Source of the DNA: Giardia intestinalis
Lineage: Eukaryota
Reading direction: 5' to 3' (one strand)
Assembly (NCBI GenBank): GCA_000002435.2
Contig: CM018792.1
DNA length: 64,000 nucleotides
Part shown: positions 1 through 31,603 of the stretch, piece after piece
Numbering within the stretch: the stretch's first letter is position 1
Layout: each line of letters opens with the position of its first letter
Program-made: the position numbers and the translations under genes
Notes under the pieces: generated by a model
The model's input: only the letters and a program-made list of their open reading frames with translations
Database searches by the model: none
What the model was told of the DNA's origin: nothing

Positions 1-1040
1 TCATTAGCATCATCTGAGTCTTGAAGTTGCCTTCTGAGCTCCCTTATAGTGTCGTTTGCTTCCTGGAGCATCATGTCTTTCTCCCGAAGCTCAGAATGCA
101 GAGCTTTGGCTTGGTTTCGATATTTTTCCACCTGGGACAGGTCAAATTTTTCTTGAAACTCTGCCAGCGATTCACCGTAAAGCGAGACCCCACTAAGATG
201 GTTGGTATAGGACCCAGGGCTTGGATCTTTGATGGAAAATGTTACTGATCCTTTTTGCTTGGCACTAGATACAGTGCTGCGCTGAACAGAATTTGCTCCC
301 AGATCAGCAATTCTAAGAGTCATGTCTTCATGTGCATGCTCACTCTGGTCCTCTCGCAATACATTGCTTCGGCCAAAGCTAGAAAGAGAAAGAGGAACTA
401 ATATGCGAAAAGATTTGGTGAAGATGTTGTTTTTTAGATTACCTGATGGGTCGATGATGTCCTTTGTTGTGATTTCGGGCGCTGAAAGCCCTCGTTTGCG
501 AATTATCCGGTTTAAATGGCGCATGTCGGAAATGTACAGACATATGATCTCTTCTGCTGCCTTGTTATATGAGTAAATATCATCTCCAAGAGACCTCTCG
601 TGTCTGTTGACAAGGAAGGCCTCAGCAAGCTCCTCCTTTTGGCTGTGCGTGATGGGCGAATCAGAGACAAACTCCAGTGGAATTCTGGCTTCGCTTGATA
701 AGATGGCCATTATCTTTGACGAAAAGAGCTGGGCAAGCTCTCTTTTCTTGAGAATGCCTTGCAGGTCAACGTGGCGAAACGGCAGAAGCCCCTTCAAGTA
801 ACAGCACACTGAAGAAAGATCAGTTAAATATATGTCCATTGTGTTAAAGTACAGCCTCCTGGCAAGCTCCTTTTGATTCCTAATGAGCGACCTATTCGTC
901 TTGACATTATGGGCCTTGATTGCCTCCAAGATGTTAGTCTGGTCTAGGACGCCCCAGTTAACACTTACGGTGATGTCTGGAGTACGTGCGCGCGTGCTTC
1001 TTGACACTTGAGCACTTTCTGGCTTGTTAGACGATCGCAT
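1..1040 (-). CDS. Hypothetical coiled-coil protein, partial (ATG at 1040..1038; 3' end runs off the window start)
   Basis: The reverse strand was translated by hand from the ATG (plus-strand cat at 1038-1040) down to position 1 with no stop (MRSSNKPESAQVSRSTRARTPDITVSVNWGVLDQTNILEA...ELRRQLQDSDDAN). It is absent from the ORF track because it is truncated at the window edge. The plus-strand ORFs at 21..801 lie inside it. Confidence 0.5.
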   Translation of the reverse strand, partial: MRSSNKPESAQVSRSTRARTPDITVSVNWGVLDQTNILEAIKAHNVKTNRSLIRNQKELARRLYFNTMDIYLTDLSSVCCYLKGLLPFRHVDLQGILKKRELAQLFSSKIMAILSSEARIPLEFVSDSPITHSQKEELAEAFLVNRHERSLGDDIYSYNKAAEEIICLYISDMRHLNRIIRKRGLSAPEITTKDIIDPSGNLKNNIFTKSFRILVPLSLSSFGRSNVLREDQSEHAHEDMTLRIADLGANSVQRSTVSSAKQKGSVTFSIKDPSPGSYTNHLSGVSLYGESLAEFQEKFDLSQVEKYRNQAKALHSELREKDMMLQEANDTIRELRRQLQDSDDAN

Positions 1041-11915: not shown

Positions 11916-13160
11916 ATGCTTCTCATTGGTTCTTTGCTGGCCACAGTCCTTAGCTTTGGCCCTTGTCCTGCCGACAATCCGCCTGCTGATTGCTTGATGT
12001 GTATCTCGAACACTGTCCCCCTCTGCATCATGTGCGATAGACTTCGCCGTCCTTCGCTTGGTCCCGTGGACGGCGTTTGTACCAGTGATAGAGCGAAAAT
12101 CCACGACGCGTGCACTGACACGGGTCTCTACCAAGACTTTGGATTTTGCATGCACTGTGCCCCGGGATGGTTCCTCCACGGCTACAACAACGTCACAGGC
12201 GCTGAGGGCGGTTGCTTCAGGTGCGACCATGTAGCGGCAGGAGGTATTGACCACTGTGACACGTGCACCCCTGGGAACATGAACACTACTATCAATCAGG
12301 TTGTTCGCGTTATTTGCACAAAATGCAAAGCAGGATATCAACTCAATGGGGACGGAAGCGCCTGCACAGATGTCTCGGGCGAGGCTAAGTGCAAGGCAGG
12401 CCAGCAGAAGTGCAAGACTTGCAAATCTGACAACAGTGGATGTGCAACCTGTGATGACGGGTATGGTCTTAAGAGTGGATCGTGTGTAGTTTGCTCGGAG
12501 AAGTGTCTCCTTTGCAATAATGACGCTGATACTTGCACCTCTTGCACGCAGTCTGTGTTAAAGGACGGAAAGTGCGTTTCTTGCGATCAAGGCGAGAACA
12601 TGGCCGGGTGCTTCAGTTGCCTTTCGCCAGCAGATACGGGAACATCCACAGGCCGGTGCACGTTAGCATCAGGAAGCTACTGGGTACAGGACGATGGTAC
12701 GACAGCCAAGTGCACGATCACCAACTGCGTGCGCTGCATGAATCTGTTTGGAAAAGAATACTGCACCACATGCGTTAATGATTACTTCGTGTTGGACGGC
12801 GTCTGCGAGAAGTATTATAAACTGTCTGGCGAAGGCACAAAGGGGTGTTCGGACGGCGTTGTTGGTATGTGCCGATCGTGCGTGGGCAAGGACGTCTTTT
12901 GGTTCCTGAACACGTGTCTTACCATAACCGGTACAATAGGCAAAACGGTCTGTAGGGCTATGAACCAAACGAGCCATATCTGCACAGACTGCATGCCTGG
13001 GTTCCGCGCTACATCGTACGGTTGCCAGCAGTGCAATGTCATTAACTGCCAAGACTGCTCCCTGGACCTCCGCTTATGCTCTGCCTGTCTCTCTGGCTAC
13101 ACCCCCATTACGAAAGATGGGAAGATCGTGGCATGCAACAAAGCGAAGACTTCTCTTTAG
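11916..13160 (+). CDS. High-cysteine secreted protein (CXXC repeats, VSP/HCMP-related, no membrane anchor)
   Basis: ATG at 11916 follows an AT-rich initiator (gaaattagtaaacataataaaATG). Signal peptide MLLIGSLLATVLSF. Many CXXC motifs (CTKCKAGY, CKTCKSDNSGCATCDDGYG, CLLCNND...CTSC...). Ends ...ACNKAKTSL with no hydrophobic tail and no CRGKA. Confidence 0.8.
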   Translation: MLLIGSLLATVLSFGPCPADNPPADCLMCISNTVPLCIMCDRLRRPSLGPVDGVCTSDRAKIHDACTDTGLYQDFGFCMHCAPGWFLHGYNNVTGAEGGCFRCDHVAAGGIDHCDTCTPGNMNTTINQVVRVICTKCKAGYQLNGDGSACTDVSGEAKCKAGQQKCKTCKSDNSGCATCDDGYGLKSGSCVVCSEKCLLCNNDADTCTSCTQSVLKDGKCVSCDQGENMAGCFSCLSPADTGTSTGRCTLASGSYWVQDDGTTAKCTITNCVRCMNLFGKEYCTTCVNDYFVLDGVCEKYYKLSGEGTKGCSDGVVGMCRSCVGKDVFWFLNTCLTITGTIGKTVCRAMNQTSHICTDCMPGFRATSYGCQQCNVINCQDCSLDLRLCSACLSGYTPITKDGKIVACNKAKTSL

Positions 13161-18100: not shown

Positions 18101-18392
18101 GGACAACTGAGGGAGGAACACTGTCAACAGAGGTTGCGAGTCTCTTAACAGGACTGCACTGCACAGCAGCCTTAGTAGGCCCCTGATTAACTGAGGCAGG
18201 CTTTAATTTGACCATGGGTGCCTGCTTGGATGTAGGCTCTACAGAGCCTGTCACCTGCAGAGTTGACAGAAAGCCATCCACACCCTTTCTATCTGCCTCG
18301 TCAGTAAAGCAATTGGCTGCAGAAACAAAAAGGCTTGAGCCAGGATGCTCCTCAGGCTCTCCGCCAGCAATCTGAGCGGCGGTTTTAAACAT
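15153..18392 (-). CDS. Hypothetical large protein (about 1080-1104 aa)
   Basis: The ORF runs to an ATG at 18467 (MCVFLCAAREAGKLLK...). The second ATG, at 18392 (MFKTAAQIAGGEPEE...), has an AT-rich initiator-like 5' flank and avoids most of the overlap with the divergent plus gene. No recognisable domain. Its stop lies 8 bp from the SSF1 stop. Confidence 0.5.
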   Translation of the reverse strand: MFKTAAQIAGGEPEEHPGSSLFVSAANCFTDEADRKGVDGFLSTLQVTGSVEPTSKQAPMVKLKPASVNQGPTKAAVQCSPVKRLATSVDSVPPSVVRLLGAVRERLSNNIWQCRSIDLSTYRTNLHILPLRQLRSNGQDALSAQKSPAELLRDHALSIPKLSSSISSSMRHSSTDGIDPQVLQLWDLLVTNKIYNCLGTSLINCDGKKCQSTVHTLIKLLDCNDVYFDMIKFTHRLLLHQHLLQSLPSHNSHTLFPSPLIPPHILLRALMSTREQRPISLELLIPCFVRLLIAYKSHSLLYNPYSDALIGKQKALLRHKELGSPKFCTYIPSRMEPRAFEQLSIIHGATVFPAFDAVSDDRDSFSMLYDSSREYELHRLAFLAGTLAEDFSVCKAVAFAAADNTLLMHRDDEVITGCTMYKLDAELFAHTSSGTLEDNKLAGMIVLPYSHELEELIFCGSQFYDSTITGSDDTNFYYNPTISQHIDLITLLYTEMCRYADGALTTNRLYLILIALGLNPTLAGYEWFLLQYQLSIFRLAKTQITIINIARPGPRDPIKSVINPYTVLIHCMLKYKLEFDSDFVPLLKRIHRQDIAANSCTGIYLIVDTRMSQPDTSREASSRPYAPTTLNPGINSTGVVVAETTPPIKSQEKAVCHKNSASAEPLEMLVTDGFYLVKASVDPLLFNFLTKNKISLYKHEKILVSLPQTINFGSAQEPPIRADWGTEGALVLTYYNTRPAPRSCFLGRFHRPFISMSLSHAVSYALETRLCSHQASNSNLVPHMSALVLKVFDPTIVIKKVQEQAAAGSEATVEKETRSYCYRRALVIDPSCIDIDAISKFSKDLESSSSSLPQFPCLFLHQFGSKASVMESFEPGLQIELISTEIKRYSPHGRGTEGAPSGSYLQLSPSAIICSQPANTSTSRELHSALNSCYQNYLFFVHNTVGGLELLCDHTVFFYCLGTSATIPPMYCFRLSDDSSRIFDLIEVIQSTNMSTIFVHSIKEQTSENEAIEFRTSPRKLAKLTIKAAILQDKGNGKYRLVCPDEAVIKTTGDLFFYENEEQTNMYVQILEESIRKYL

Positions 18393-20411
18393 TGGATAAA
18401 AGTTATATCGCTGTCCGCGCTTAAGAAGCTTTCCTGCCTCTCTTGCAGCACACAGGAACACACACATGCCTTTGAAGGTCCAGCTACGTGTGAAATGTTC
18501 TCCAAATTCCTCAGAAAGCCTTCAAAAACTCCTCTCATAGCAAGCTCTCTCCCAGTACTGCCAATGGTCGAAGTTGATGTTGATACGTATCTTAGAGCAA
18601 AGAGGATGATCTTCTCACACAATGAGTGTAGATTGGTGCTTTCTCAAGACCCGGAGAACTTCCCGCTCTACACATCATCTATACTGCTTTACCTGGCATC
18701 TTCGTTTCTCGTAAAGTCTGCAATCTATGACACTGCAGTGCTTCTTAGCAACGTTCTCAGGGTTCCTATCATTGCTGTAATAGAGAATCCAGGACCGTGC
18801 TATCACCGACTTTACCGTTTTCTCTATGGCACTTACCGGATAATAAGTGTAGGAATCAATATGCATAAGACTACTTATCAACCAAAAGATATAATTGCGC
18901 ATTTCAATGTTTACTATTCTGCAAACATTGTGTTGACGGAATACTTTCCCACACTTGTCAAGAACGAACATCAGCTCCTTACCCCAGCACACGAGCTATC
19001 GCTAACATTTTCTTTGCTCTTGCGAAACGTCGGGGTCTTCTACCTGTCCCCATATCCATTGCGACTGCGTACGGGGCCCCTCCAGGTGGCACAGCTTTCC
19101 AACTCTGTGCTTTCCTGGGATGTTCGGTCACAAGCAGTCCAGCAACAGGGGGTACCACCAGACCCAGCATTTACAAATGCCACCAAGCGGCTGCCATCTC
19201 ACAGCACAAACTACCCGCAATACCCCTGGATCTCCCCTCTCATCTCCACATGCGTGCTTGTTTATGACACTGGACTTAAAAAAGAAAAATACGAACTCAA
19301 TCTATCTTTACGAATGAAAGATTGTATGGATCTGTGGCTGGCTGAAAATGCCTCTTGTCTGATACGAGAATTATACCACTCAACTGATGTTTATTCCATG
19401 CTTAAAGGCATTCTTCTTCTTATGATCGTCAATTCTGGCCTATCTGCATATCATGCAGGTCTCCATTCATCAACAAAACAATACACAACCGAGACTCCTG
19501 TGCGTACAAGCCAAAGGCAGAGGAAGTGGAGAGATGTAGATGCTCAGTTTGAGGCATTGTCTCTGGCTCTAGAGACAGCAGACAAAAGCGTTGATCACTT
19601 GGTTGGAAAAAACCTTCAGGCGTGTTCGGAAAGCCTGACACACACATGCTCCGACCTTCTGAATCAGCTGACAAGCGATAGTGGCCAAGAGACGATATCG
19701 CATGTCATTATTGCAACCTACCTGGGATACATTTCGTTAGAAGCCTTCTTATTGTTCCTTTCTACACAGAAAGCAAGTGCAGCACGCCGCCAAAACAGTC
19801 AAAATAGTCAAAACAGTCAAGACGGTAGAGAGCAGGACAGTGAAGACACATTCACCAAGATATACACATTTGCACTGCTTGACGTAAAGAGCTCTAACAA
19901 GATAGAAGAGGAGAACACAGTAACTCCTCAGTACTTATTATGGGTACTTTACAACAATCACGTGCGAAGATTGTACTTTGAAATGCTGCACTCGTTAGAC
20001 ATTTCCCTGTGCCCAATAGCCAGCCAAGGTGGATTTGTCAACTTTTCTGAAAAGGTTCTTAGTGTGCTTCAGATCCAGTTGCTCTTTGCCCTGTGCTCTC
20101 CTAGCTCGCTTGATCAGTACCTCCTGTTTGTGTTCAGAACTAGTTTTCAGTATGCTCGGCCAGAGCTCGTAAGCCCTATGCCTCTAGTTTCGCGGCAATA
20201 TTTAGCGTATGATCTCACGATAGTGGACATAATCGCTATACTTAGCCCAATATATCGAAAGATGGTCTACCTGTACGCTTTACGGTACATAGAACGTACC
20301 ATCTTCAGCGTTTATGGGAGGAATGTGTCTCGGAGTGCATCCCGACGGCCAGTAGGCTTGCTTCCAAATTTTCGTAATGCGAGTAATCAAATTCATCCAG
20401 GACAGGGATAG
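18345..20411 (+). CDS. Hypothetical protein (688 aa, or 638 aa from the ATG at 18495)
   Basis: ATG verified at 18345, preceded by aaacaaaaagg. An alternative in-frame ATG lies at 18495 (MFSKFLRK...). Contains a short (NSQ)3 tandem repeat encoded at 19795..19830. No recognisable family. Confidence 0.5.
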   Translation: MLLRLSASNLSGGFKHWIKVISLSALKKLSCLSCSTQEHTHAFEGPATCEMFSKFLRKPSKTPLIASSLPVLPMVEVDVDTYLRAKRMIFSHNECRLVLSQDPENFPLYTSSILLYLASSFLVKSAIYDTAVLLSNVLRVPIIAVIENPGPCYHRLYRFLYGTYRIISVGINMHKTTYQPKDIIAHFNVYYSANIVLTEYFPTLVKNEHQLLTPAHELSLTFSLLLRNVGVFYLSPYPLRLRTGPLQVAQLSNSVLSWDVRSQAVQQQGVPPDPAFTNATKRLPSHSTNYPQYPWISPLISTCVLVYDTGLKKEKYELNLSLRMKDCMDLWLAENASCLIRELYHSTDVYSMLKGILLLMIVNSGLSAYHAGLHSSTKQYTTETPVRTSQRQRKWRDVDAQFEALSLALETADKSVDHLVGKNLQACSESLTHTCSDLLNQLTSDSGQETISHVIIATYLGYISLEAFLLFLSTQKASAARRQNSQNSQNSQDGREQDSEDTFTKIYTFALLDVKSSNKIEEENTVTPQYLLWVLYNNHVRRLYFEMLHSLDISLCPIASQGGFVNFSEKVLSVLQIQLLFALCSPSSLDQYLLFVFRTSFQYARPELVSPMPLVSRQYLAYDLTIVDIIAILSPIYRKMVYLYALRYIERTIFSVYGRNVSRSASRRPVGLLPNFRNASNQIHPGQG

Positions 20412-24018: not shown

Positions 24019-27000
24019 CTACCGGTTTCTCCTGATCGTTCTCTGCTTTTCTGCTTCAACAACCATTCCTTGCAAAACTAAGAGTCCCTTGTCCTTCTTC
24101 ATCATTTCAACCAAGCGCTTAGCATTATTGAATCCAGAATAGTGAAGACCAGTCGAGATTTGCAGTCTGCGAGACAGATACCTTCCGCAAACAAAGCTTA
24201 ATGCGTCTTTTCGCTTGTTCTTGTCTTCATCATTGGTCAAGAGCTCTCTGTATCTTCCTTGCTGTCCCCACTCTATTAGCTCCTCATCATCTAAAGCTAT
24301 GTCACTGTGACGTGGATCCTCTTTGAGCACTAAGTATTTGTAAGGCTGCAACCCCAGGTTCAATCGCCCGCTGCTCTCCTTTCGAAGCTCTATTTGAAAC
24401 AGTAAGGAGTTTGAGCTAGGTACATACACTGTGAACTCTGAGCTGCCATTCGGTTTGAAGTCAACGTAGTCCTTTATGCACCGCATGCGTTCAAAGCACG
24501 CCAGAAGATTCTGAATATTGAATTGCGGGGGAGCCCTTATGATAGCCTTGATAAATGGCTCTGCTATCCCGACATTGCTGTATGCTAGAGCACTCTGCAT
24601 GACTCCTAGAAAGCTCGGGATAACCGCTACGTAAGACAGTGAGGATCGTATGTGAAACTTATCTAAGAAGGAGGATAGAAACCACGACTCGATGGCACAA
24701 GACTGATACTGCTCTAAAAAGTCTGTCATAAGCATACTCTTTACGTCAACCACGTTATGCAGTGCAATAAGAGCAAGATTTGTCACCGGCTCCTCACACA
24801 AAGGACCTGCGCTGATCAGAATTTTGAACGCTTCTATGAGTGCTACGCTCAACCCTGCGTGGAGGTCTCCAGATAGTGAGTGATAGAACAAGGCACACTC
24901 GTAGTCATCTATCTCACCGTTCGAAGAGGTGTCAATGTATATGGGTACTATATTGGGCTCCTCAGGGCTCCGAGAGGAAAGTACTGCTTTTATGTGGCTA
25001 TTTGCGGTACAGATGAAGGCAACAGTGTGGCGCGTCAAAACAACCCTGTCTTTAAACACCTTGATTTGTAAAAGCTCTGCTCCCATAGGATGCCCACACT
25101 TGGAGAAGCTTAATCCCGGTATGAAGGAGGATAGTACGGGGGCTGTTACTAGATTCTTGCCGCACAGTTGGTGATAATACTTAAGGATATCAAGATTTTG
25201 TATTTGAACAAAGCGATTGCATACTTTTACCACAGATTGCAGAGCATCCATATCGCAGCTTTGCTCCCTGGATAGTGCTGCTGAATGCACATCTATTTTA
25301 TTGAAGATTTCCTTCAGGGTAATGTCAGTACTTGCTACTGCTGCACACATGCTATCATAGTCAGGTGCACCTTTGTCCAACGAATTCTGAGAATGCTCAT
25401 GGGGATCACTACCTTGCTCTGATGATATTTGGACAGTAGCGTGTCCTTCGTCTATGCCTACTCCGAAGCAATCATCAAAAAAGGCGTCCTCCAAAGAAGT
25501 CTCAAGAACTACTGCAGCACCTCCCTCACCTGCATGTGCACTCTGTAGTGAAAGAACGTGGTCTGTAAGGGCTACTTGCAAAAATTCCGGAGGCTCGCCA
25601 AAGGGAGTAACTGACGCACACTTTCCAGGCATGACGTGTTCTTTTAAGTGCAGGATACTATCTCTTATCACATAGTAGCCCTCATCACAGTCCCTGCCGT
25701 AAATGTCAATGAGAAAGCTGTCCAATTGCTCACAGCACCGATCCAGGTGCACGTCTCCCGAAACAGCAAGGATGATTTCGCCGTTGACACTAGAAATACT
25801 ATAAATGGCGCTACTATCAATGGTGCAGAGCAAGTTGAGAGCCGAAATGAGCTGGGGATAGCCCTTTAGTGAAATCGGAGCAATGGAAACATGAATCAGC
25901 GGTGATGGCGCTTCTATGTACCGCAATCCATCCAATCGCTTTACTATGCGCTTCAGAGCCTTCAATTGGTTTTCCTCTAAGCCCTTTTCTGAACGTTTTC
26001 CAGAAGCAGCAGACAGACCTAGGTCCGAAGTATCACGGTGCGTCGTTTCTGTCAATATATGTTGTGACTTGTAGCTAGAGAGTATAGCATCCATTTCTTT
26101 ATCGATGTGAAACGCAGTATTTAAATCAGTCAGTAAGGAACCGAATGGAACAGTAGTTGATACCTCTACTATGCATATATTTCCCTCGTGTGGAACCGTA
26201 GCGGTGTAGGGAACGATGGACTGGATCATGGGGCAATAAAACCCCTTTAGGACCGTGCTAATTCCGAGCTTGCACGTGCTCTCCTTTTCGGTGTAAGCAA
26301 GAAGAGTAAATGATTGATCGACAGCCACAGACCCTGCCAGTATCTTGCAGAGCAAAAAAGAGCGTCGGTCCTCGGCACTGAGACGAGTCTTTTGAGGTAA
26401 ATCCAGATCTTTTTCATTCAAGACCTTTCCGCAAAGTATTACAGTTGGGGTCACTTTATTAAATAAATCTAGGGAACGTGTGTCTAAGGCAGTTCTTACT
26501 CCTTTAGCGATGATGTTATTAGAGAGTAAAGGATTATGGATGCTTATCACTGCTGCATTGAAGATAACATTACTCAAGGAAAGCCAGTCAGAGAGAAAGC
26601 TCTTGATCAATTGTGCCGTGCTAGAATTATTTATGGTTACCTGCTCAAGTGGCTTGCCCATGCATTTGCGGTACATCTTCGAAAGCTTTTTGAATGCTGC
26701 TTCAGTGTCCAATTTGCTGCACGCCAGTACGGCCCAAACGCTTTCAAGTATGAGGGTCACGAATGCTGGTGCGAGGGACTTCTTAACCGTTCGAAAACAA
26801 CCGTTGGTTAGATCCACTGCAACAGCAGCATCCCAAAGGTTTTTGTAAAGCAAGGTCCTGTCATGATTAGGGCTGGCGATAAACGGATATTTCTCGGCTA
26901 ATATTTGTGCAAAGGAAGAGATGGTAAATCCCCAACCTCCAATGGCAGATGCAAAGACGACGTTATCTTTAATAGGAGAGAAGTGGTCTTGTTGTGCAGC

Positions 27001-27615
27001 AGGCTTCCCCTCTACTTCCGTCCATACACTATTGTAGGCTGCATTGCTCTCGTCTATCAATTTTAGAAGGTGGAAGTAGGCCTCAAGAGGTTCCATATTC
27101 AATTCATTGTACAACCGATCCAACTTGTTGATGACCAGGACGATGTCGATCTGCAGTTTAATCAAGTGCTTGAGCACTCCTAGCGTCTGGGAGGCAACGC
27201 CCTCAATGGCATCAACAAGAAGAAAAGCGCCATCGCAAATGGAAACGGCCGCCAAAACCTCGTGGGAGAAGTCACAATGCCCCGGCGTGTCAATGACATT
27301 CATCAACAAGGGTACTCGCATGGCCTTGGCCGAATCCGTACTCTGGTCTTTAAAGAGGTCGACAATCATCTGATTATCTGACAGGTGAAGTAGAGAGACA
27401 GCTGAGGCTTTCATAGTAATGCACCTCTCCTGCTCTGTGTACAGATAGTCCATGTACCGCAGTTGCCCGCTGTGCTCCTTGGCGATTAGGTTGTTGGATG
27501 CCAAAAGGGTATCGACTAACGTAGTCTTTCCGTGATCTATGTGCGCGCAGACACAAATGTTCCTGACATGCTGTGGCTTGGACTGAATGGTCATTGCAAG
27601 GTTCGCATGATCCAT
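24019..27615 (-). CDS. EFL1: EF-2 family GTPase, EFL1/Ria1-like (60S ribosomal subunit maturation)
   Basis: ATG verified at 27615. The G domain starts at the N-terminus: RNICVCAHIDHGKTTL (G1), NVIDTPGHCDF (G3), VINKLDRL (G4). Length 1198 aa with a large insertion, and no N-terminal acidic extension, so it fits EFL1/Ria1 rather than Snu114. Confidence 0.8.
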   Translation of the reverse strand: MDHANLAMTIQSKPQHVRNICVCAHIDHGKTTLVDTLLASNNLIAKEHSGQLRYMDYLYTEQERCITMKASAVSLLHLSDNQMIVDLFKDQSTDSAKAMRVPLLMNVIDTPGHCDFSHEVLAAVSICDGAFLLVDAIEGVASQTLGVLKHLIKLQIDIVLVINKLDRLYNELNMEPLEAYFHLLKLIDESNAAYNSVWTEVEGKPAAQQDHFSPIKDNVVFASAIGGWGFTISSFAQILAEKYPFIASPNHDRTLLYKNLWDAAVAVDLTNGCFRTVKKSLAPAFVTLILESVWAVLACSKLDTEAAFKKLSKMYRKCMGKPLEQVTINNSSTAQLIKSFLSDWLSLSNVIFNAAVISIHNPLLSNNIIAKGVRTALDTRSLDLFNKVTPTVILCGKVLNEKDLDLPQKTRLSAEDRRSFLLCKILAGSVAVDQSFTLLAYTEKESTCKLGISTVLKGFYCPMIQSIVPYTATVPHEGNICIVEVSTTVPFGSLLTDLNTAFHIDKEMDAILSSYKSQHILTETTHRDTSDLGLSAASGKRSEKGLEENQLKALKRIVKRLDGLRYIEAPSPLIHVSIAPISLKGYPQLISALNLLCTIDSSAIYSISSVNGEIILAVSGDVHLDRCCEQLDSFLIDIYGRDCDEGYYVIRDSILHLKEHVMPGKCASVTPFGEPPEFLQVALTDHVLSLQSAHAGEGGAAVVLETSLEDAFFDDCFGVGIDEGHATVQISSEQGSDPHEHSQNSLDKGAPDYDSMCAAVASTDITLKEIFNKIDVHSAALSREQSCDMDALQSVVKVCNRFVQIQNLDILKYYHQLCGKNLVTAPVLSSFIPGLSFSKCGHPMGAELLQIKVFKDRVVLTRHTVAFICTANSHIKAVLSSRSPEEPNIVPIYIDTSSNGEIDDYECALFYHSLSGDLHAGLSVALIEAFKILISAGPLCEEPVTNLALIALHNVVDVKSMLMTDFLEQYQSCAIESWFLSSFLDKFHIRSSLSYVAVIPSFLGVMQSALAYSNVGIAEPFIKAIIRAPPQFNIQNLLACFERMRCIKDYVDFKPNGSSEFTVYVPSSNSLLFQIELRKESSGRLNLGLQPYKYLVLKEDPRHSDIALDDEELIEWGQQGRYRELLTNDEDKNKRKDALSFVCGRYLSRRLQISTGLHYSGFNNAKRLVEMMKKDKGLLVLQGMVVEAEKQRTIRRNR

Positions 27616-27937
27616 TGCTCAACAGGTAAGATGTGAAAGAATCAAATTTATAGCCTTGTCACACCGGTATGTTTGACTGAGAGTTGATTGTTTATGCCGT
27701 CAATACCCATATGTCTCCATCCACAATGAAAACTAACACCCCATCAGGTGATATTCTTTGAAACCGGAGCCATTTGACATGGAATAGCAAGATTAAGTAA
27801 TGCACAAGAATGTCTTACGGGTGTCATAGACATTATTATAACTACAGTAGCATGCAACTCTCTAGTCTACGGCGCTGAATCTGACTATACCTATAACGTA
27901 CACGAGTTAATCCTCATGCTTGAAGTAAGGCGGATGA

Positions 27938-28267
27938 ACGGGGACAAGGTGCTTCACATGCTCCACAGACAGATGTAGTAACTGTAGTGAGAATGGCGTG
28001 TGTGACGCATGCAGTGCTGACAAGAAGGTGAGTCCCGGGAAGACCTCGTGCATGGACGCTTGTCCTGAGAACTCTGCCGAGAACCCAGCTAGTGCCTATG
28101 CATGCAGCAGCGGGTACAGCCCAGACACCAATGGAACCTCTTGTGTGAGTACGGATGTCAGGCTCTCCACGGGCGCCATCGCTGGCATCTCTGTGGCTGT
28201 CATCGTCGTTGTAGGAGGCCTCGTCGGATTCCTCTACTGGTGGTTCATCTGCCGGGGGAAGGCGTAA
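27938..28267 (+). pseudogene. Variant-specific surface protein (VSP) 3' fragment: CXXC tail, transmembrane segment and CRGKA, with no 5' half
   Basis: The reading frame opens right after a TGA at 27935..27937. There is no ATG and no signal peptide; the track's start at 27998 is a GTG. Translation is [30 protein letters not shown]...[31 protein letters not shown], the canonical VSP membrane anchor and invariant CRGKA tail. AGTAAAC is at 28285..28291, 18 nt after the stop. Confidence 0.7.
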
Positions 28268-28284
28268 GTGGCATCCACTTAGGT

Positions 28285-28291
28285 AGTAAAC
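28285..28291 (+). promoter_or_regulatory. Giardia polyadenylation signal AGTAAAC downstream of the VSP fragment
   Basis: Exact AGTAAAC (AGTRAAY consensus) 18 nt after the TAA at 28265..28267. Confidence 0.6.
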
Positions 28292-28354
28292 GCGTCATCG
28301 ACGGATCCCGCCGGGTGCTCCCTCAAGACGGACTGTCGAGATATGGTTCGCAAT

Positions 28355-29275
28355 TCACTTAGAGGAGAGGAAGAGCCCGCTATACACGGCGCTCTCGATG
28401 TCGCACTCGTTCGACCCGCGGACTATGTTGAAGTAGCCCTCCTCGCCCCAGTTGGGTCCGAGAGAGTTCTTCACGATCCAGTACGGGATGCGCTCCTCGT
28501 CGTCAGTCGTCCCGTAGCCGATGATCTCAACCGCATGGCTGGAGATCTGGATCCCGTAGACGTGCTTGTAGACGCCTCCTCGGTAGTAAAGGAAGTCACG
28601 ATAGACGCTCATGACTGCCTGCACAGGCCCGTCGTTGGCGAGGGTCTGCATGATGGCGGTCACGTTGCCGCTGTAGTCGAGGCAGCCGTCGGCCTTGACG
28701 AGTTGAATCTCGGACCCATCGTCGCATAATGCGGGGCATGGAGACGAGAGGTCCTTATCGGCGTCTGTGTAGCGGACACACTCGAGAGTCGTGGTACCGT
28801 GCTCCGTAAGGAAGGTCCAAACATTGAACGAAGTCCCTCCAGCGCACCCGAGATCCAAGTCATCACACGAGACCGTGTACTGCTGTGAGTAGGGCACGCC
28901 AACAGGGTCAAGCCACTGCATGCATCGTCGGTCACCGAACGCCCCAGTCGCCGAGAACGCCCAACAGGCGCCGCAGTAGCCTTGGTCATAGACCGGGGTG
29001 ATGCACTGCGGGTACTCTTCGCGGAGGTCAAACGCGTCGGGAATGGGTCCTGATGGTTCAGCGCGCGGACACTCTGCGGACGGACGGGTGGGCTGGCCAT
29101 GGCGAGGGAACATGGCGCGCAGGTCGTCCTCGGAGAGGCCCACAAGCCGGTCGGAGATCCCAGCGGTCCAGGGTGGTTGCAGGGCGCGGATCTCCTGTAA
29201 CTCCCTTCTGGAGAGAAGGGGCTTGGAGAGGGCCACCCCAAGCCCAGCTAAGAGATACGTGATCACAGACAACAT
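28355..29275 (-). CDS. Cathepsin B-like cysteine protease (papain family C1)
   Basis: The ORF track's start at 29380 is a TTG. The first ATG, at 29275, gives MLSVITYLLAGLGVALS (signal peptide). Catalytic Cys motif QGYCGACWAFS, and HAVEIIGYG...WIVKNSLGPNWGEEGYF (His/Asn region). Strongly GC-rich codon usage. AGTGAAT overlaps the stop on the minus strand (plus 28353..28359). Confidence 0.9.
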   Translation of the reverse strand: MLSVITYLLAGLGVALSKPLLSRRELQEIRALQPPWTAGISDRLVGLSEDDLRAMFPRHGQPTRPSAECPRAEPSGPIPDAFDLREEYPQCITPVYDQGYCGACWAFSATGAFGDRRCMQWLDPVGVPYSQQYTVSCDDLDLGCAGGTSFNVWTFLTEHGTTTLECVRYTDADKDLSSPCPALCDDGSEIQLVKADGCLDYSGNVTAIMQTLANDGPVQAVMSVYRDFLYYRGGVYKHVYGIQISSHAVEIIGYGTTDDEERIPYWIVKNSLGPNWGEEGYFNIVRGSNECDIESAVYSGLFLSSK

Positions 29276-29392
29276 TTTAAACGATACGCGTTCGGGGCTG
29301 TACATACGTCTATCTCTAGACCGACAGCGCCACCAGAGGATTCCCGCGCGCATGGTGCCGTCTGACCATAAGATGAGCAAATAAATAAAGCC

Positions 29393-31603
29393 ATGCTAGG
29401 CCTGCTATTTTTGGGGGCCGTAGTCAGCTCTACCGCCGACGTCTTCGGACAGGAGTGTACGACTGCGGCGCAAAAGGACACATGCGCGACCAAGAAGTGT
29501 ATAACGGTCAGCGGCACCGAACTGTGCCGCGAGTGCGTTGGCGGAAAAGTCCCTATCGACGGGATTTGTAAGGACACTACTGATTCCAGTGTTAGTTTAT
29601 ATGGATGCGAGCATTCTAGTGGCACTGGATTTTGCACCTCGTGCAAGGATACCGCCTTCCTCTTCTACGGCAGCTGTTACGCTATAGACAAGGTTCCGGG
29701 AAACCTTGTTTGTAGCAAAGCAGAGAGTGGCAAGTGTACGGAGTGCAGACAAGGATCAAAGTTTCTGTTTACAAACCCCGACGACAGTGCGGCGGAACGG
29801 TGCATATTGTGCTACGACAACGTCGGCTTCGGCTCATATAAAGGCGTCGATGGCTGCAGGTACTGCCTGCCTCCGCTCACCGGAGAGACATCTGCAGAGT
29901 GCAACTGGTGCCAGAATGAGAAGTATGGCCCGATAGACGGAGTATGCAAAGAGCCGAGCAGGCACTTGTGCGCCGACGGGGCCTGCTCAAACTGTTACAT
30001 GACTCACATTCAGCACAACGGAGGGTGCTACACAAAGACAGAAACCGTTGCACAGAAGATATGCACCACCGAAAACCAGTTCCAAGTAATTAACATCACT
30101 GCCTGCAAGAAGTGCGCCATTAAAGGGGAGGTCCCAATGGACGGGCGGTGCATAAAGGGCTTGCTCGAACCAAAGTGCAACCCGTATCCTAACACGGATG
30201 GTAGCTGTACCAACTGCACAAGGAGCGGGGTCAACTACAACACGTTCCTGTTCAACGGGGGTTGCTACAACATGAGTGACTACATCGGGTCCCAGATCTG
30301 CACCAAGGTCAACGATAGGGCAGAATGCGACGCTTGGAACACGGGAGATTACGGCGTCTTCAAGCTCCCAGACTATCACATGGCCTACCCGTGCAGTAAC
30401 ACGTCTGCTGGTGGAATCCAGGGTTGCTCGCGCTGTCGCTACAACAATACAGAAAAGAAGGTCATCTGCTACGATTGTGAGTATGACACGCTAGCCTTTG
30501 ATGGGATGTCATGTATTACTGAGACCAACTGCAATGGGGATCACAGGCAGCGCAAATGCCCTGGGAGCTCCAAAAGAGGATGCAGATGCGAGTGCATGGA
30601 CAAGTACTACAGGAGCGGCGAGCAGTGCTCTGCGTGCGCAAGCTCATGTTTGAGGTGCAATAACCAGGAGGCGAATTCCTGTACGTTGTGTCCCTCCGGC
30701 CAGGCACTTGCATACAATGGCGACGGGACTACAGGGACGTGCAAGGCCGGCTGCACGCCAGACAGCACTTGCGAAGCCTGTGGTCTGGAGGTCGACCAGA
30801 CGAAATACTGCTCTAAATGCAAAGATTCCGCCCAGTACCCCCTGAATGGCGCGTGTACACCGGCGAGCAATGCCAGGGCGTCTGCTTGTTTGCGGCAATC
30901 CGATGGGGCGTGCCAGCAGTGCTCGTCAGGCTACTTCCTGATGGGGGGCGGCTGCTACCAGGTCAGCAAATACCCAGGCCGGTTTGTGTGCAAGCGAGCT
31001 GACGGCGGAAAGTGTGTGGACACCACGGACGAGTACAACATCAACAGTAAGGGCGAGCTTGTAGACTGCAACTCCAACTGTGAGACTTGCGTGAAGGGCC
31101 AAAAGACGCAGTGCCTGTCGTGTCATTCGAACAAGTACCTCAAGAAGGAGGGGACAACCTCTTACGGCACCTGCGTGAGCCGTAACGACTGCAAGGACGG
31201 ATATTACGCCAATCATGACACCATGGAGTGCCTCCCGTGCAACATCAACGACTGCGTCACATGCCATCTTATTGACAAGTCAATTTTGTGCAGTCTATGC
31301 CGCGGGACCAGCCTTGTGGGCCTCGACAAACGCTCGTGCACGACGATCGCCCCGGAGAACGCTGTCGAATTCTGGGGCAGGTATGTGTGCAACGAGGACT
31401 CGGTCCTTTCAGGCAACGCGTGCGTGAGAAAGGACTCTCAGGACACTGGAAGGCTTTCCAACAAGGCGTCCATTGGGATCGGAGTCGGAGTCAGCGTGGT
31501 CGTGCTTGTCTTGATTGGCGTTCTGATTTGGTGGCTAGTCTTTCAGAGGAGAAGGGGTTCTGGTTTTGGAGGCAGCAGAGATATGCTGACGTCCAGGGAC
31601 TAA
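29393..31603 (+). CDS. High-cysteine membrane protein (HCMP, VSP-like CXXC repeats, C-terminal TM, no CRGKA)
   Basis: ATG at 29393 follows caaataaataaagccATG. Signal peptide MLGLLFLGAVVSSTADVFG. Dozens of CXXC motifs (CRECVGG, CTSCKD, CTECRQG, CRYC, CSNC, CKKC...). C-terminal TM segment IGIGVGVSVVVLVLIGVLIWWLVF with a cytoplasmic tail QRRRGSGFGGSRDMLTSRD. AGTAAAT lies at 31650..31656. Confidence 0.85.
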   Translation: MLGLLFLGAVVSSTADVFGQECTTAAQKDTCATKKCITVSGTELCRECVGGKVPIDGICKDTTDSSVSLYGCEHSSGTGFCTSCKDTAFLFYGSCYAIDKVPGNLVCSKAESGKCTECRQGSKFLFTNPDDSAAERCILCYDNVGFGSYKGVDGCRYCLPPLTGETSAECNWCQNEKYGPIDGVCKEPSRHLCADGACSNCYMTHIQHNGGCYTKTETVAQKICTTENQFQVINITACKKCAIKGEVPMDGRCIKGLLEPKCNPYPNTDGSCTNCTRSGVNYNTFLFNGGCYNMSDYIGSQICTKVNDRAECDAWNTGDYGVFKLPDYHMAYPCSNTSAGGIQGCSRCRYNNTEKKVICYDCEYDTLAFDGMSCITETNCNGDHRQRKCPGSSKRGCRCECMDKYYRSGEQCSACASSCLRCNNQEANSCTLCPSGQALAYNGDGTTGTCKAGCTPDSTCEACGLEVDQTKYCSKCKDSAQYPLNGACTPASNARASACLRQSDGACQQCSSGYFLMGGGCYQVSKYPGRFVCKRADGGKCVDTTDEYNINSKGELVDCNSNCETCVKGQKTQCLSCHSNKYLKKEGTTSYGTCVSRNDCKDGYYANHDTMECLPCNINDCVTCHLIDKSILCSLCRGTSLVGLDKRSCTTIAPENAVEFWGRYVCNEDSVLSGNACVRKDSQDTGRLSNKASIGIGVGVSVVVLVLIGVLIWWLVFQRRRGSGFGGSRDMLTSRD

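What the first reader, a model, noticed from the sequence alone, without database searches (positions are those of the whole stretch)
27938..28291. Orphan VSP 3' end (TM plus CRGKA plus AGTAAAC) with no 5' half, in a housekeeping neighbourhood
About 110 codons encode a perfect VSP C-terminus: CXXC motifs, the membrane-spanning [12 protein letters not shown], the invariant CRGKA, and the VSP-typical AGTAAAC polyadenylation signal 18 nt after the stop. The frame opens immediately after a stop codon, with no ATG and no signal peptide. It is therefore either a truncated VSP pseudogene or a 3' cassette left by recombination. Such fragments are candidate donors for VSP gene conversion or templates for the antisense/small RNAs implicated in antigenic-variation control. 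Its position, convergent to cathepsin B and 320 bp from the EFL1 start, is unexpected for a VSP element.
Basis: partly seen in the sequence, partly recalled or inferred. Interest (0 to 1): 0.6.

Follow-up and report, generated by a model that had tools for sequence, protein, structure and literature searches.

The report
Known truncated Giardia VSP pseudogene
This is the dead 3' end of a Giardia surface-antigen (VSP) gene, already catalogued as pseudogene GL50803_29744; the one new point is that its membrane-anchor end differs so much between two assemblage A sub-lineages that it was probably overwritten from another VSP gene.

Summary
Window 27938-28267 (+) is a 109-codon frame that opens right after a TGA. 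It has three CXXC motifs, a VSP transmembrane segment, CRGKA, a stop, and the 17-nt VSP extended polyadenylation signal at 28277-28293. It has no start codon or signal peptide, and no VSP homology lies upstream.

It is not new. It is RefSeq pseudogene GL50803_0029744 (330 nt, 'pVSP', type I) and vsp no. 79 of Adam et al. 2010. That paper describes three short ATG-less vsp remnants, one of 329 bases, as inactive truncated pseudogenes.

The neighbourhood is not purely housekeeping. A 736-aa high-cysteine membrane protein gene lies 1.1 kb away. The EFL1-fragment junction was found only in assemblage A; assemblages B and E carry other DNA there.

Against a sub-assemblage AII orthologue, the flanks are about 97-98% identical and the fragment body diverges at about the neutral rate. 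The TM/CRGKA stretch is 24% different, then unalignable as far as the shared poly(A) signal. The two tails use different VSP codon flavours. That points to gene conversion of the tail, probably in the WB lineage.

No evidence supports a role as donor or small-RNA template. Low interest.

The parts
24019..27615 (-). EFL1/Ria1-type GTPase gene (annotated 'Elongation factor 2', GL50803_12055). It is the left neighbour, transcribed away from the fragment.
   Evidence: 1198-aa ORF. Pfam GTP_EFTU E 6e-42. Homologues are EFL1/Ria1. The gene id comes from the PMC3091692 supplement.
27616..27802 (.). EFL1 upstream intergenic DNA, still alignable with assemblage B (72% identity). Only 27616-27652 is alignable with assemblage E.
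   Evidence: blastn against the GS contigs L013/L014 and the P15 contigs L009/L020.
27803..27937 (.). Spacer found only in assemblage A, AT-rich, with no VSP homology. It ends with the in-frame TGA at 27935-27937. The junction created by the truncation or rearrangement lies in or at the end of this stretch.
   Evidence: No match in the B, E or dog-assemblage loci. No significant VSP hit. GC of 27616-27937 is 40%.
27938..28267 (+). 5'-truncated VSP pseudogene (GL50803_0029744 / ORF 29744 / vsp no. 79): 109 codons plus a stop, with no start codon and no signal peptide.
   Evidence: The 330-nt string is identical to the one in Table S7 of bioRxiv 10.1101/2022.03.07.483299. Adam 2010 Additional file 1 lists it.
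27950..28012 (+). Three CXXC motifs (CFTC, CSNC, CDAC), the remains of the Cys-rich ectodomain.
28082..28276 (+). Patch that is hyper-divergent between WB-type and AII-type assemblage A. Divergence is 14% at first, then 24% through the TM region. The CRGKA codons, the stop and the 9-nt spacer cannot be aligned at all. This is the putative gene-conversion tract.
   Evidence: for the TM stretch, P = 1.5e-5 against the highest neighbouring dS.
28175..28249 (+). VSP transmembrane segment [25 protein letters not shown]. It equals the TMD recorded for many WB VSPs except Cys to Tyr.
   Evidence: The motif [15 protein letters not shown] occurs 46 times in Table S1 of the preprint.
28250..28267 (+). 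CRGKA cytoplasmic tail and the TAA stop.
28277..28293 (+). VSP extended polyadenylation signal ACTTAGGTAGTAAACGC, containing AGTAAAC at 28285-28291. It is identical in both assemblage A lineages.
   Evidence: The motif definition is from PMC3091692. It is listed for this pseudogene in Table S6 of the preprint.
28355..29305 (-). Cathepsin B gene, convergent with the fragment. Its AGTGAAT poly(A) motif overlaps its own stop codon (28353-28359, read on the minus strand).
   Evidence: Pfam Peptidase_C1 E 7e-53..
29393..31603 (+). High-cysteine membrane protein (HCMP/CRMP) gene of 736 aa, with a VSP-type ectodomain and TM but a long non-CRGKA tail.
   Evidence: Pfam VSP E 2.6e-57. It is conserved next to the zf-MYND gene in P15.

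Best explanation
The element is a non-functional relic: the last 109 codons plus the 3' UTR signal of a variant-specific surface protein gene.

Origin (inferred): its 5' three-quarters, including the start codon, signal peptide and initiator, were lost when a rearrangement joined it to the upstream region of the EFL1 gene in the assemblage A lineage.

Evolution of the body (shown): the body drifts at about the neutral rate and has lost two Cys that all compared VSPs keep.

Evolution of the tail (shown in part): the TM/CRGKA/3'-spacer end differs between WB-type (AI) and DH-type (AII) parasites far more than drift allows. The two tails carry two different VSP tail codon flavours. I infer that the tail was replaced by gene conversion from another VSP. 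The nearly invariant TM-coding DNA upstream and the invariant ACTTAGGTAGTAAAC downstream would supply the homology. The more likely direction is that the AII tail is the old, decayed original and the WB tail is a recent copy. That would explain why the WB tail looks almost perfect.

Nothing indicates that the fragment is expressed or used.
For: Identity as a VSP 3' end:
- Pfam VSP E 7.9e-19, covering only profile positions 301-397 of 397.
- 105 VSP-family hits.
- The extended PAS is present and unique in the window (motif from PMC3091692).

Truncation:
- A TGA lies directly upstream, there are stops in all frames, and there is no VSP homology before about 27930.
- The nearest VSP relatives are only 60-64% identical, so no close parent was found.

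Already catalogued as a pseudogene.

Real, not an artefact: the same structure is present in 8 listed independent AII assemblies (23 contigs read) and in one further AI contig as far as that contig extends, to 28049.

Decay:
- CxC to YAC, and FLCWWF to FLY; the first is clearly shared by AI and AII, while the second lies at the edge of the AII deletion and is less certain there.
- The AII copy has Glu, Glu and Arg in the TM, a 15-bp deletion that removes WWFIC, and no CRGKA.

Neutral body: raw divergence is 9.0%, against neighbour dS of 0.059-0.076 (P = 0.25).

Conversion of the tail:
- 19 of 78 sites differ in the TM stretch (P = 1.5e-5 even against dS 0.076). The next stretch (40 nt in WB, 28 nt in AII) cannot be aligned. 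The following 78 bp are identical.
- At six third-codon-position sites, AII carries the state of the P0002 tail at all six. WB carries the state of the WB mini-VSP GL50803_00102178 at five of the six.
- AII also has about 10 private transitions, nearly all G-to-A or C-to-T.
- The WB spacer (TAA GTGGCATC) places the PAS 20-mer at offset 12. That offset and 20-mer are shared only with VSPs GL50803_00112113, 00137614, 0050370 and 0050375. Two of these have TMDs one or two residues from the fragment's, apart from the fragment's own Cys-to-Tyr change.
- The AII spacer TAGATGTAT resembles P0002's TAGATGT.

Synteny break: and the P15 supplement.
Against: - No donor sequence could be retrieved, because no Giardia DNA database was searchable here. 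The conversion is therefore inferred from only two haplotypes and two reference tails.
- The direction is not settled. AII could instead have been overwritten from a decayed pseudogene.
- 'CTCTA(C)', the Tyr codon, appears in both tails. That sits a little awkwardly with a wholly foreign WB tail, although it lies at the edge of the AII deletion.
- The 28082-28159 stretch is also somewhat over-diverged (14%, P = 0.04), yet both lineages keep the odd YACSSGY there. The tract boundaries are therefore uncertain.
- In the fragment body, differences lean towards synonymous sites (dN/dS 0.23; binomial P = 0.003, or 0.05 if transition bias is allowed for). This could mean imported paralogous sequence. 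Less plausibly, it could mean some coding constraint.
- Whether assemblages B and E have the fragment next to their cathepsin B is unknown, because the P15 contig ends inside cathepsin B.
- No expression data were available.
Confidence: 0.85

Rival explanations
1. The fragment is kept as a working part of antigenic variation. It would serve as a silent 3' cassette that donates sequence to expressed VSP genes. Alternatively, its transcript (sense or antisense) would feed the small-RNA pathway that silences VSPs, or would soak up the miRNAs that target conserved VSP 3' ends.
For: - It retains an intact VSP poly(A) signal, identical in AI and AII.
- The WB tail is near-canonical, so it would share small-RNA target sites with real VSPs.
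- It exchanges sequence with the family in at least one direction.
- Recombination among vsp 3' regions is documented (PMC2996952).
Against: - The AII lineage has let exactly the conserved part decay: no CRGKA, and charged residues in the TM. The tail is therefore not under constraint.
- The body evolves neutrally.
- No VSP closer than 64% exists in the protein search, so nothing shows that it has ever acted as a donor.
- There is no initiator and no AT-rich promoter before any ATG (Adam 2010 lists 'Inr: NO'; sequence).
- Giardia antigenic switching is described as epigenetic, not recombinational (PMC2996952 abstract).
- No expression data were found for it in the held tables.
Confidence: 0.07
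2. It encodes a small protein from the internal ATG at 28052 (71 aa) or the GTG at 27998 (89 aa). Without a signal peptide, this would be a tail-anchored membrane micro-protein with a VSP TM and CRGKA.
For: An open frame of 71 to 89 codons exists and was once annotated as 'VSP, putative' (XP_001707286.1). Complete mini-VSPs of about 128 aa do exist in Giardia (P0013, P0014, P0017).
Against: - The real mini-VSPs have signal peptides (MLLVLL...), and this one has none.
- The AII orthologue destroys the TM and the tail.
- The ATG context (GTGCATGGAC) is GC-rich and lacks the VSP initiator PyAATGTT.
- RefSeq now treats it as a pseudogene with no ORF.
Confidence: 0.03
3. Only the poly(A) signal matters. 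It would be retained as a terminator that stops divergent ('sterile') transcripts from the bidirectional EFL1 promoter before they run antisense into cathepsin B.
For: From 28277 to 28354 there are 0 differences in 78 bp between AI and AII, against about 3% in the other intergenic DNA. Bidirectional promoters are mentioned for Giardia in PMC3091692.
Against: The same 78 bp contain the 3' UTR and poly(A) motif of cathepsin B on the other strand, which explains the conservation equally well. Zero differences in 78 bp at a 3% rate is not unusual (expected about 2.4). There are no transcript data.
Confidence: 0.05
4. It is an assembly or sequencing artefact: a frameshifted or mis-joined full-length VSP.
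For: None was found. Short-read contigs of AI isolates do break inside or near the fragment (L012 ends at 28049).
Against: - The same junction and the same TGA occur in the 8 listed independent AII assemblies, in the DH genome (DHA2_150629), and in RefSeq record NC_051859.1, annotated as a chromosome.
- There is no VSP homology in any frame upstream.
- Adam 2010 noted an internal contig position and no evidence of mis-assembly for the three ATG-less remnants.
Confidence: 0.01

Closest known systems
vsp no. 79 / ORF GL50803_29744 (Adam et al. 2010, PMC2996952), which is RefSeq pseudogene GL50803_0029744, a 'pVSP' type I pseudogene (Rodriguez-Walker et al. 2022 preprint, 10.1101/2022.03.07.483299)
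   Same: It is the same element. The 330-nt string is identical. Both have 109 aa, 11 Cys, 3 CXXC, no initiator, chromosome 4 / NC_051859.1, and CRGKA in frame 1.
   Different: Nothing differs in sequence. Three points were not found in the parts of those papers that I read: the comparison with the AII orthologue, the replaced tail, and the position at a break of synteny with assemblages B and E.
Giardia variant-specific surface proteins (Pfam PF03302)
   Same: CXXC-rich ectodomain remnant, family TM segment, CRGKA tail, and the extended poly(A) signal 9 nt after the stop.
   Different: It lacks the start codon, the initiator, the signal peptide and about three-quarters of the ectodomain. Two Cys that are present in all compared VSPs are replaced by Tyr.
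Other orphan VSP 3' remnants, for example P0002 in isolate DH (158 aa, L084 10001-10477) and the 75-, 105-, 264- and 414-nt pVSPs in Table S7
   Same: They are short pieces made only of the C-terminus and ending in CRGKA. P0002 lies among housekeeping genes (CS-domain protein, ribosomal L16, Aha1, EMP24), 14 bp after an ankyrin/RING gene. P0002 is also the nearest full-coverage relative (64% identity).
   Different: They sit at different loci and are not recent copies of each other (71% DNA identity).
High-cysteine membrane proteins (HCMP/CRMP), such as the neighbour at 29393-31603
   Same: Cys-rich ectodomain and a VSP-like TM.
   Different: HCMPs have long, variable cytoplasmic tails instead of CRGKA (preprint). 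The fragment has CRGKA and the VSP-specific poly(A) signal, so it derives from a VSP and not from an HCMP.
VSG pseudogene archive of Trypanosoma brucei (an analogy only, from my own knowledge and the titles listed)
   Same: Both involve truncated surface-antigen gene pieces that exchange sequence with family members by gene conversion.
   Different: In trypanosomes the pseudogenes act as donors and build expressed mosaics. Here the fragment appears to be the recipient, and Giardia switching is described as epigenetic.

Membership tests
Giardia VSP gene (functional) | C-terminal CRGKA cytoplasmic tail | tested here: met
   CRGKA at 28250-28264, followed by TAA. It is lost in the AII orthologue.
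Giardia VSP gene (functional) | Conserved VSP transmembrane domain | tested here: met
   [25 protein letters not shown] compared with the catalogued [25 protein letters not shown]. There is one change, Cys to Tyr.
Giardia VSP gene (functional) | Cys-rich ectodomain with multiple CXXC motifs | tested here: met
   Three CXXC motifs and 11 Cys in 109 aa. Only the last quarter of the Pfam VSP profile is covered.
Giardia VSP gene (functional) | N-terminal signal peptide | tested here: not met
   The frame opens after a TGA. No hydrophobic N-terminus follows any in-frame Met or Val. Upstream frames are closed.
Giardia VSP gene (functional) | ATG start with the initiator/Kozak-like PyAATGTT | tested here: not met
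   There is no ATG at the 5' end, and the internal ATG at 28052 has the context GTGCATGGAC. Adam 2010 lists 'Inr: NO'.
Giardia VSP gene (functional) | Extended poly(A) signal ACTTAGGTAGT[AG]AA[CT]GC within 0-15 nt of the stop | tested here: met
   At 28277-28293, 9 nt after the stop, and unique in the window. The definition is from PMC3091692.
Giardia VSP gene (functional) | Mutually exclusive expression on the trophozoite surface | not testable with these tools
   No RNA or protein data could be reached. The id is absent from the held expression tables.
pVSP type I pseudogene (Rodriguez-Walker et al. 2022) | Similarity to VSPs (best BLASTx hit a VSP), with no ORF bearing a proper start | tested here: met
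   It is listed as such in Table S7.
Gene-conversion recipient | A sharply bounded tract of excess divergence between orthologues, flanked by normal divergence | tested here: met
   Flanks are 97-98% identical. The TM stretch is 24% different and the tail cannot be aligned. The next 78 bp are identical.
Gene-conversion recipient | An identified donor with near-identity to the tract | not testable with these tools
   No Giardia genome DNA was searchable. Only indirect candidates exist from the poly(A) offset and the TMD (GL50803_00137614, 0050370, 0050375, 00112113). K-mer searches of the held supplement text found only the fragment itself.

The most novel reading that the evidence does not exclude
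Orphan VSP 3' remnants embedded in core chromosome regions may still be wired into the family's recombination network. This one was repaired by gene conversion in the AI lineage. If so, such remnants could in turn act as reservoirs or donors of tail and ectodomain sequence, or could yield transcripts with a canonical VSP 3' end that feed or titrate the small-RNA silencing system. The recipient part is fairly likely (about 0.6). The functional part (donor or regulatory use), which is what would be novel, is not.
Probability: 0.07. Interest if true: 0.55.

Novelty: already known. Interest (0 to 1): 0.18.

Why it matters
As a genome feature it is ordinary. Assemblage A Giardia carries about 200 VSP-like pseudogenes, and this one has been listed since 2010.

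The modest added value is a clean natural example of a pattern. A dead VSP fragment far from VSP arrays differs between two close lineages in a patch bounded by the family's most conserved sequences, and each lineage's version carries a different VSP tail flavour. This supports ectopic gene conversion acting on VSP 3' ends, even in pseudogenes.

It also carries a caution. A 'perfect' TM/CRGKA/poly(A) end is not evidence that a VSP fragment is young or functional.

Finally, it adds another case to the known association of VSP-family sequences with synteny breaks between assemblages.

Tried and rejected
- Parent gene search. The 109-aa query against 5.8 billion proteins gave only the WB annotation itself, the AII orthologue (83%), and VSPs at 67% identity or less; the best hit covering nearly the whole query is 64%. 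No close parent exists there.
- Outgroup state. I fetched EFL1 and zf-MYND orthologues in assemblages E (P15), B (GS) and the dog assemblages. None has the fragment beside EFL1. The P15 contig that carries cathepsin B, HCMP and zf-MYND stops 116 bp into cathepsin B, so the state in E remains unknown.
- Metagenome scan with the extended poly(A) motif, meant to harvest VSP 3' ends. It returned 63 loci, all chance matches of 17-19 nt with no VSP tail.
- Donor search by k-mers in the supplementary tables of the 2022 preprint. Only the fragment itself matched, because the stored sequences are truncated.
- tblastx is not installed (one search returned nothing), so I used tblastn instead.
- Rfam scan of 27400-28600 found no RNA family.
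- Repeat search. Neither the intergenic DNA nor the fragment has another copy in the window or in the fetched Giardia loci, apart from the P0002 tail at 71%.
- Intron idea. An ACTAACAC...CAG string at about 27733-27748 resembles the Giardia branch/3' splice motif. The spacing is wrong and no open VSP frame follows it, so I dropped the idea (from the sequence and my own knowledge of the motif).
- Purifying selection on the fragment. I considered this because dN/dS is 0.23. I rejected it as the main reading because dN alone already equals the neutral rate, and because the AII tail is destroyed.

Full report
**What is there.** Window 27938-28267 on the plus strand is an open frame of 109 codons plus a TAA. 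It begins directly after an in-frame TGA at 27935-27937. It carries three CXXC motifs and 11 cysteines. It also has the VSP transmembrane segment [25 protein letters not shown] at 28175-28249 and the CRGKA tail at 28250-28264. Nine nucleotides after the stop lies ACTTAGGTAGTAAACGC (28277-28293). This is the 'extended polyadenylation signal' that the P15 genome paper describes as the only motif unique to VSP genes, located 0-15 bp after their stop (PMC3091692). It occurs once in the 64-kb window. Pfam's VSP model matches with E 7.9e-19, but only over profile positions 301-397 of 397. The 322 bp between the fragment and the EFL1 start codon (27615) are closed in all three frames. None of 105 VSP-family proteins aligns significantly upstream of about 27930. 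The one addition is an internal in-frame ATG at 28052 and a GTG at 27998.

**It is already known.** The protein search returned XP_001707286.1, 'VSP, putative', from Giardia lamblia ATCC 50803. This is the 71-aa ORF from the internal ATG, at 100% identity. The window is therefore WB-type assemblage A DNA.
- Table S7 of Rodriguez-Walker et al. (bioRxiv 10.1101/2022.03.07.483299) lists pseudogene GL50803_0029744 on NC_051859.1 with a 330-nt sequence identical to 27938-28267. It is classed 'pVSP' on the sheet of type I pseudogenes, with ORF 'N', inner stops 'N' and CRGKA 'Y, frame1'. Table S6 of the same work records its poly(A) motif.
- Adam et al. 2010 (PMC2996952) list it as vsp no. 79: ORF 29744, chromosome 4, no initiator, 109 aa, 11 Cys, 3 CXXC.
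[quoted passage not shown] At 329 bases, one of them matches this element in size.
- The 2022 preprint counts 217 Cys-rich pseudogenes in WB. About 89% are VSP-like and many lack the 5' part.

**It is real and truncated, not a mis-assembly.** The orthologous locus was recovered from eight independent assemblies (L001-L008) and corresponds to DHA2_150629 of isolate DH, sub-assemblage AII. The gene order is the same: GCP, a 335-aa ORF, EFL1, the fragment, cathepsin B, a 736-aa HCMP, zf-MYND, UPF1. The TGA and the spacer are also the same. The AII haplotype is invariant across seven of the eight loci; the comparison for L004 failed because of a 1-bp offset. A further AI contig (L012) matches the window up to its end at 28049.

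**The neighbourhood is not plainly 'housekeeping'.** An HCMP/CRMP gene with a strong VSP-domain match (E 2.6e-57) starts 1.1 kb downstream, with a cathepsin B gene in between. A 414-aa Cys-rich ORF lies at 11916-13160. More importantly, the junction with EFL1 was found only in assemblage A.
- In GS (assemblage B), homology to the window stops about 190 bp upstream of the EFL1 ATG, at 27802. It is followed by 2.3 kb of GC-rich DNA without genes and then a metallo-beta-lactamase-fold gene. There is no VSP, cathepsin or HCMP similarity.
- In P15 (assemblage E), homology stops at 27652 and an 8.6-kb segment follows (two ankyrin genes and a truncated GTP-binding pseudogene). The P15 paper lists this as an inserted gene segment. 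Its far side matches window 1-654, which is 27 kb away in WB.
- P15's cathepsin B, HCMP, zf-MYND and UPF1 block sits on another contig that ends 116 bp into cathepsin B.
- In a dog-assemblage contig, a kinase gene, not an HCMP, precedes zf-MYND.

VSPs, HCMPs and similar families are known to mark synteny breaks (PMC3091692). A rearrangement that cut a VSP gene is therefore a natural explanation for a 3'-only remnant here. That step is inference.

**Evolution of the fragment.** Across 12 kb, the window and the AII locus are 97.0% identical. The flanking genes are 97.7-97.8% identical and the upstream spacer 96.9%, but the fragment is only 83%.

Nei-Gojobori estimates for the neighbours give dS of 0.059-0.076.

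| Stretch | Raw divergence | Test against neutral rate 0.076 |
|---|---|---|
| Fragment body, 27938-28159 | 9.0% | P = 0.25, compatible with neutral drift |
| 28082-28159 | 14% | P = 0.04 |
| TM stretch, 28160-28237 | 19 of 78 sites (24%) | P = 1.5e-5 |

- After the TM stretch, 40 nt in WB and 28 nt in AII cannot be aligned. The next 78 bp, beginning exactly at ACTTAGG, are identical.
- The AII copy reads ...STEAIAEISVVIIVVVRGLVGLLYREKMQI*. It has charged residues in the TM, no WWFIC (a 15-bp deletion) and no CRGKA.
- One lost cysteine (CxC to YAC) is clearly shared by both lineages, so this decay predates their split. The second (FLC to FLY) is clear in WB but sits at the deletion edge in AII.

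**Why gene conversion.** The nearest relative of the fragment (P0002, 64% identity) is another orphan 158-aa VSP tail in isolate DH, and its DNA was retrieved. I made a three-way alignment and then compared it with the tail of the WB mini-VSP GL50803_00102178, whose sequence is quoted. Two codon flavours of the VSP TM emerge.
- At six third-codon-position sites where WB and AII differ, AII carries the P0002 state at all six. WB carries the mini-VSP state at five of the six.
- About ten further differences are transitions private to AII, nearly all G-to-A or C-to-T. This is what an old, unconstrained copy would accumulate.
- The 3' spacers differ in kind. AII has TAGATGTAT, like P0002's TAGATGT. 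WB has TAA GTGGCATC.
- The WB spacer places the 20-mer CACTTAGGTAGTAAACGCGT at offset 12. In Table S6 that offset and 20-mer are shared only with four VSPs (GL50803_00112113, 00137614, 0050370 'AS12' and 0050375). Two of these have TMDs within one or two residues of the fragment's, apart from the fragment's own Cys-to-Tyr change.

I conclude that the tails of the two haplotypes descend from different VSP sequences. One lineage had its tail replaced, with the exchange resolved in the family's conserved TM-coding and poly(A)-signal sequences. The more economical direction is that the AII tail is the decayed original and the WB tail is a recent import that has since suffered one G-to-A change (Cys to Tyr). 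I put this direction at about 0.6. The donor could not be identified, because no Giardia DNA collection was searchable with the available tools.

**Function.** Nothing suggests one.
- There is no start codon at the head of the frame, no initiator and no signal peptide.
- The context of the internal ATG is GC-rich.
- The AII orthologue destroys precisely the conserved tail.
- The body drifts neutrally.
- Rfam finds no RNA family.

The numbers are small.

**Verdict.** The 'unexpected position' argument does not hold. The only new observation is the lineage-specific replacement of the TM, CRGKA and spacer patch. It fits the recombination among vsp 3' regions already reported (PMC2996952). Interest is low.

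Noticed in passing
window 29393-31603 (+): A 736-aa high-cysteine membrane protein gene (Pfam VSP E 2.6e-57) with the tail ...WWLVFQRRRGSGFGGSRDMLTSRD. It is the fastest-evolving gene of the block between AI and AII (95.8% identity, with indels). It is conserved next to zf-MYND in P15 but absent from that position in a dog-assemblage contig (L019).
   Followed up: partly
window 11916-13160 (+): A 414-aa Cys-rich ORF with a sub-threshold VSP hit (30.6 bits against a cut-off of 31.4) and a cEGF hit. It is probably one of the secreted or tenascin-like Cys-rich proteins, which makes it a second Cys-rich family member in this 'housekeeping' window.
   Followed up: no
L020 1-654 and 1214-9963 (P15 contig ACVC01000118.1), compared with window 1-654 and 27652: In assemblage E, the DNA upstream of EFL1 is an 8.6-kb segment (two ankyrin genes and a truncated YchF-type GTPase pseudogene). 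Its far side matches window 1-654 at 88%, which in WB lies 27 kb away on the other side of EFL1. The P15 paper lists this as a simple insertion, but it looks like a larger rearrangement.
   Followed up: partly
L014 1-3277 and L013 1-3597 (GS, assemblage B): Upstream of EFL1, GS has about 2.3 kb of 55% GC DNA with no convincing ORF, and then a 269-aa metallo-beta-lactamase-fold gene. None of this is present in the window.
   Followed up: no
L084 10001-10477 (isolate DH, contig AHGT01000014.1): The fragment's nearest relative (P0002, 158 aa) is itself an orphan VSP C-terminal piece. It starts 14 bp after an ankyrin/RING gene and is surrounded by housekeeping genes (CS-domain protein, ribosomal L16, Aha1, EMP24). 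It lies on the same 169-kb DH contig as the AII orthologue of the fragment.
   Followed up: partly
window 28355-29380 (-): The start of cathepsin B is ambiguous. The first ATG (29305) gives MYSPERVSFKMLSV..., while the second Met (29275) begins a typical signal peptide, MLSVITYLLAGLGVALS. The gene's AGTGAAT poly(A) motif overlaps its own stop codon.
   Followed up: no
window 18345-18467 and 20305-20411: Neighbouring long ORFs on opposite strands overlap by about 120 bp and 107 bp (the BRCA2-like gene with the 688-aa ORF, and the 688-aa ORF with the GCP gene). Similar overlaps are called in the AII and P15 loci. I did not check whether the true starts remove them.
   Followed up: no
L012 (ends at window 28049); AI-type EFL1 cluster members with contig lengths of 28557-28717: Short-read (Logan) contigs of AI isolates end inside or just before the fragment, whereas AII contigs run straight through it.
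   Followed up: no
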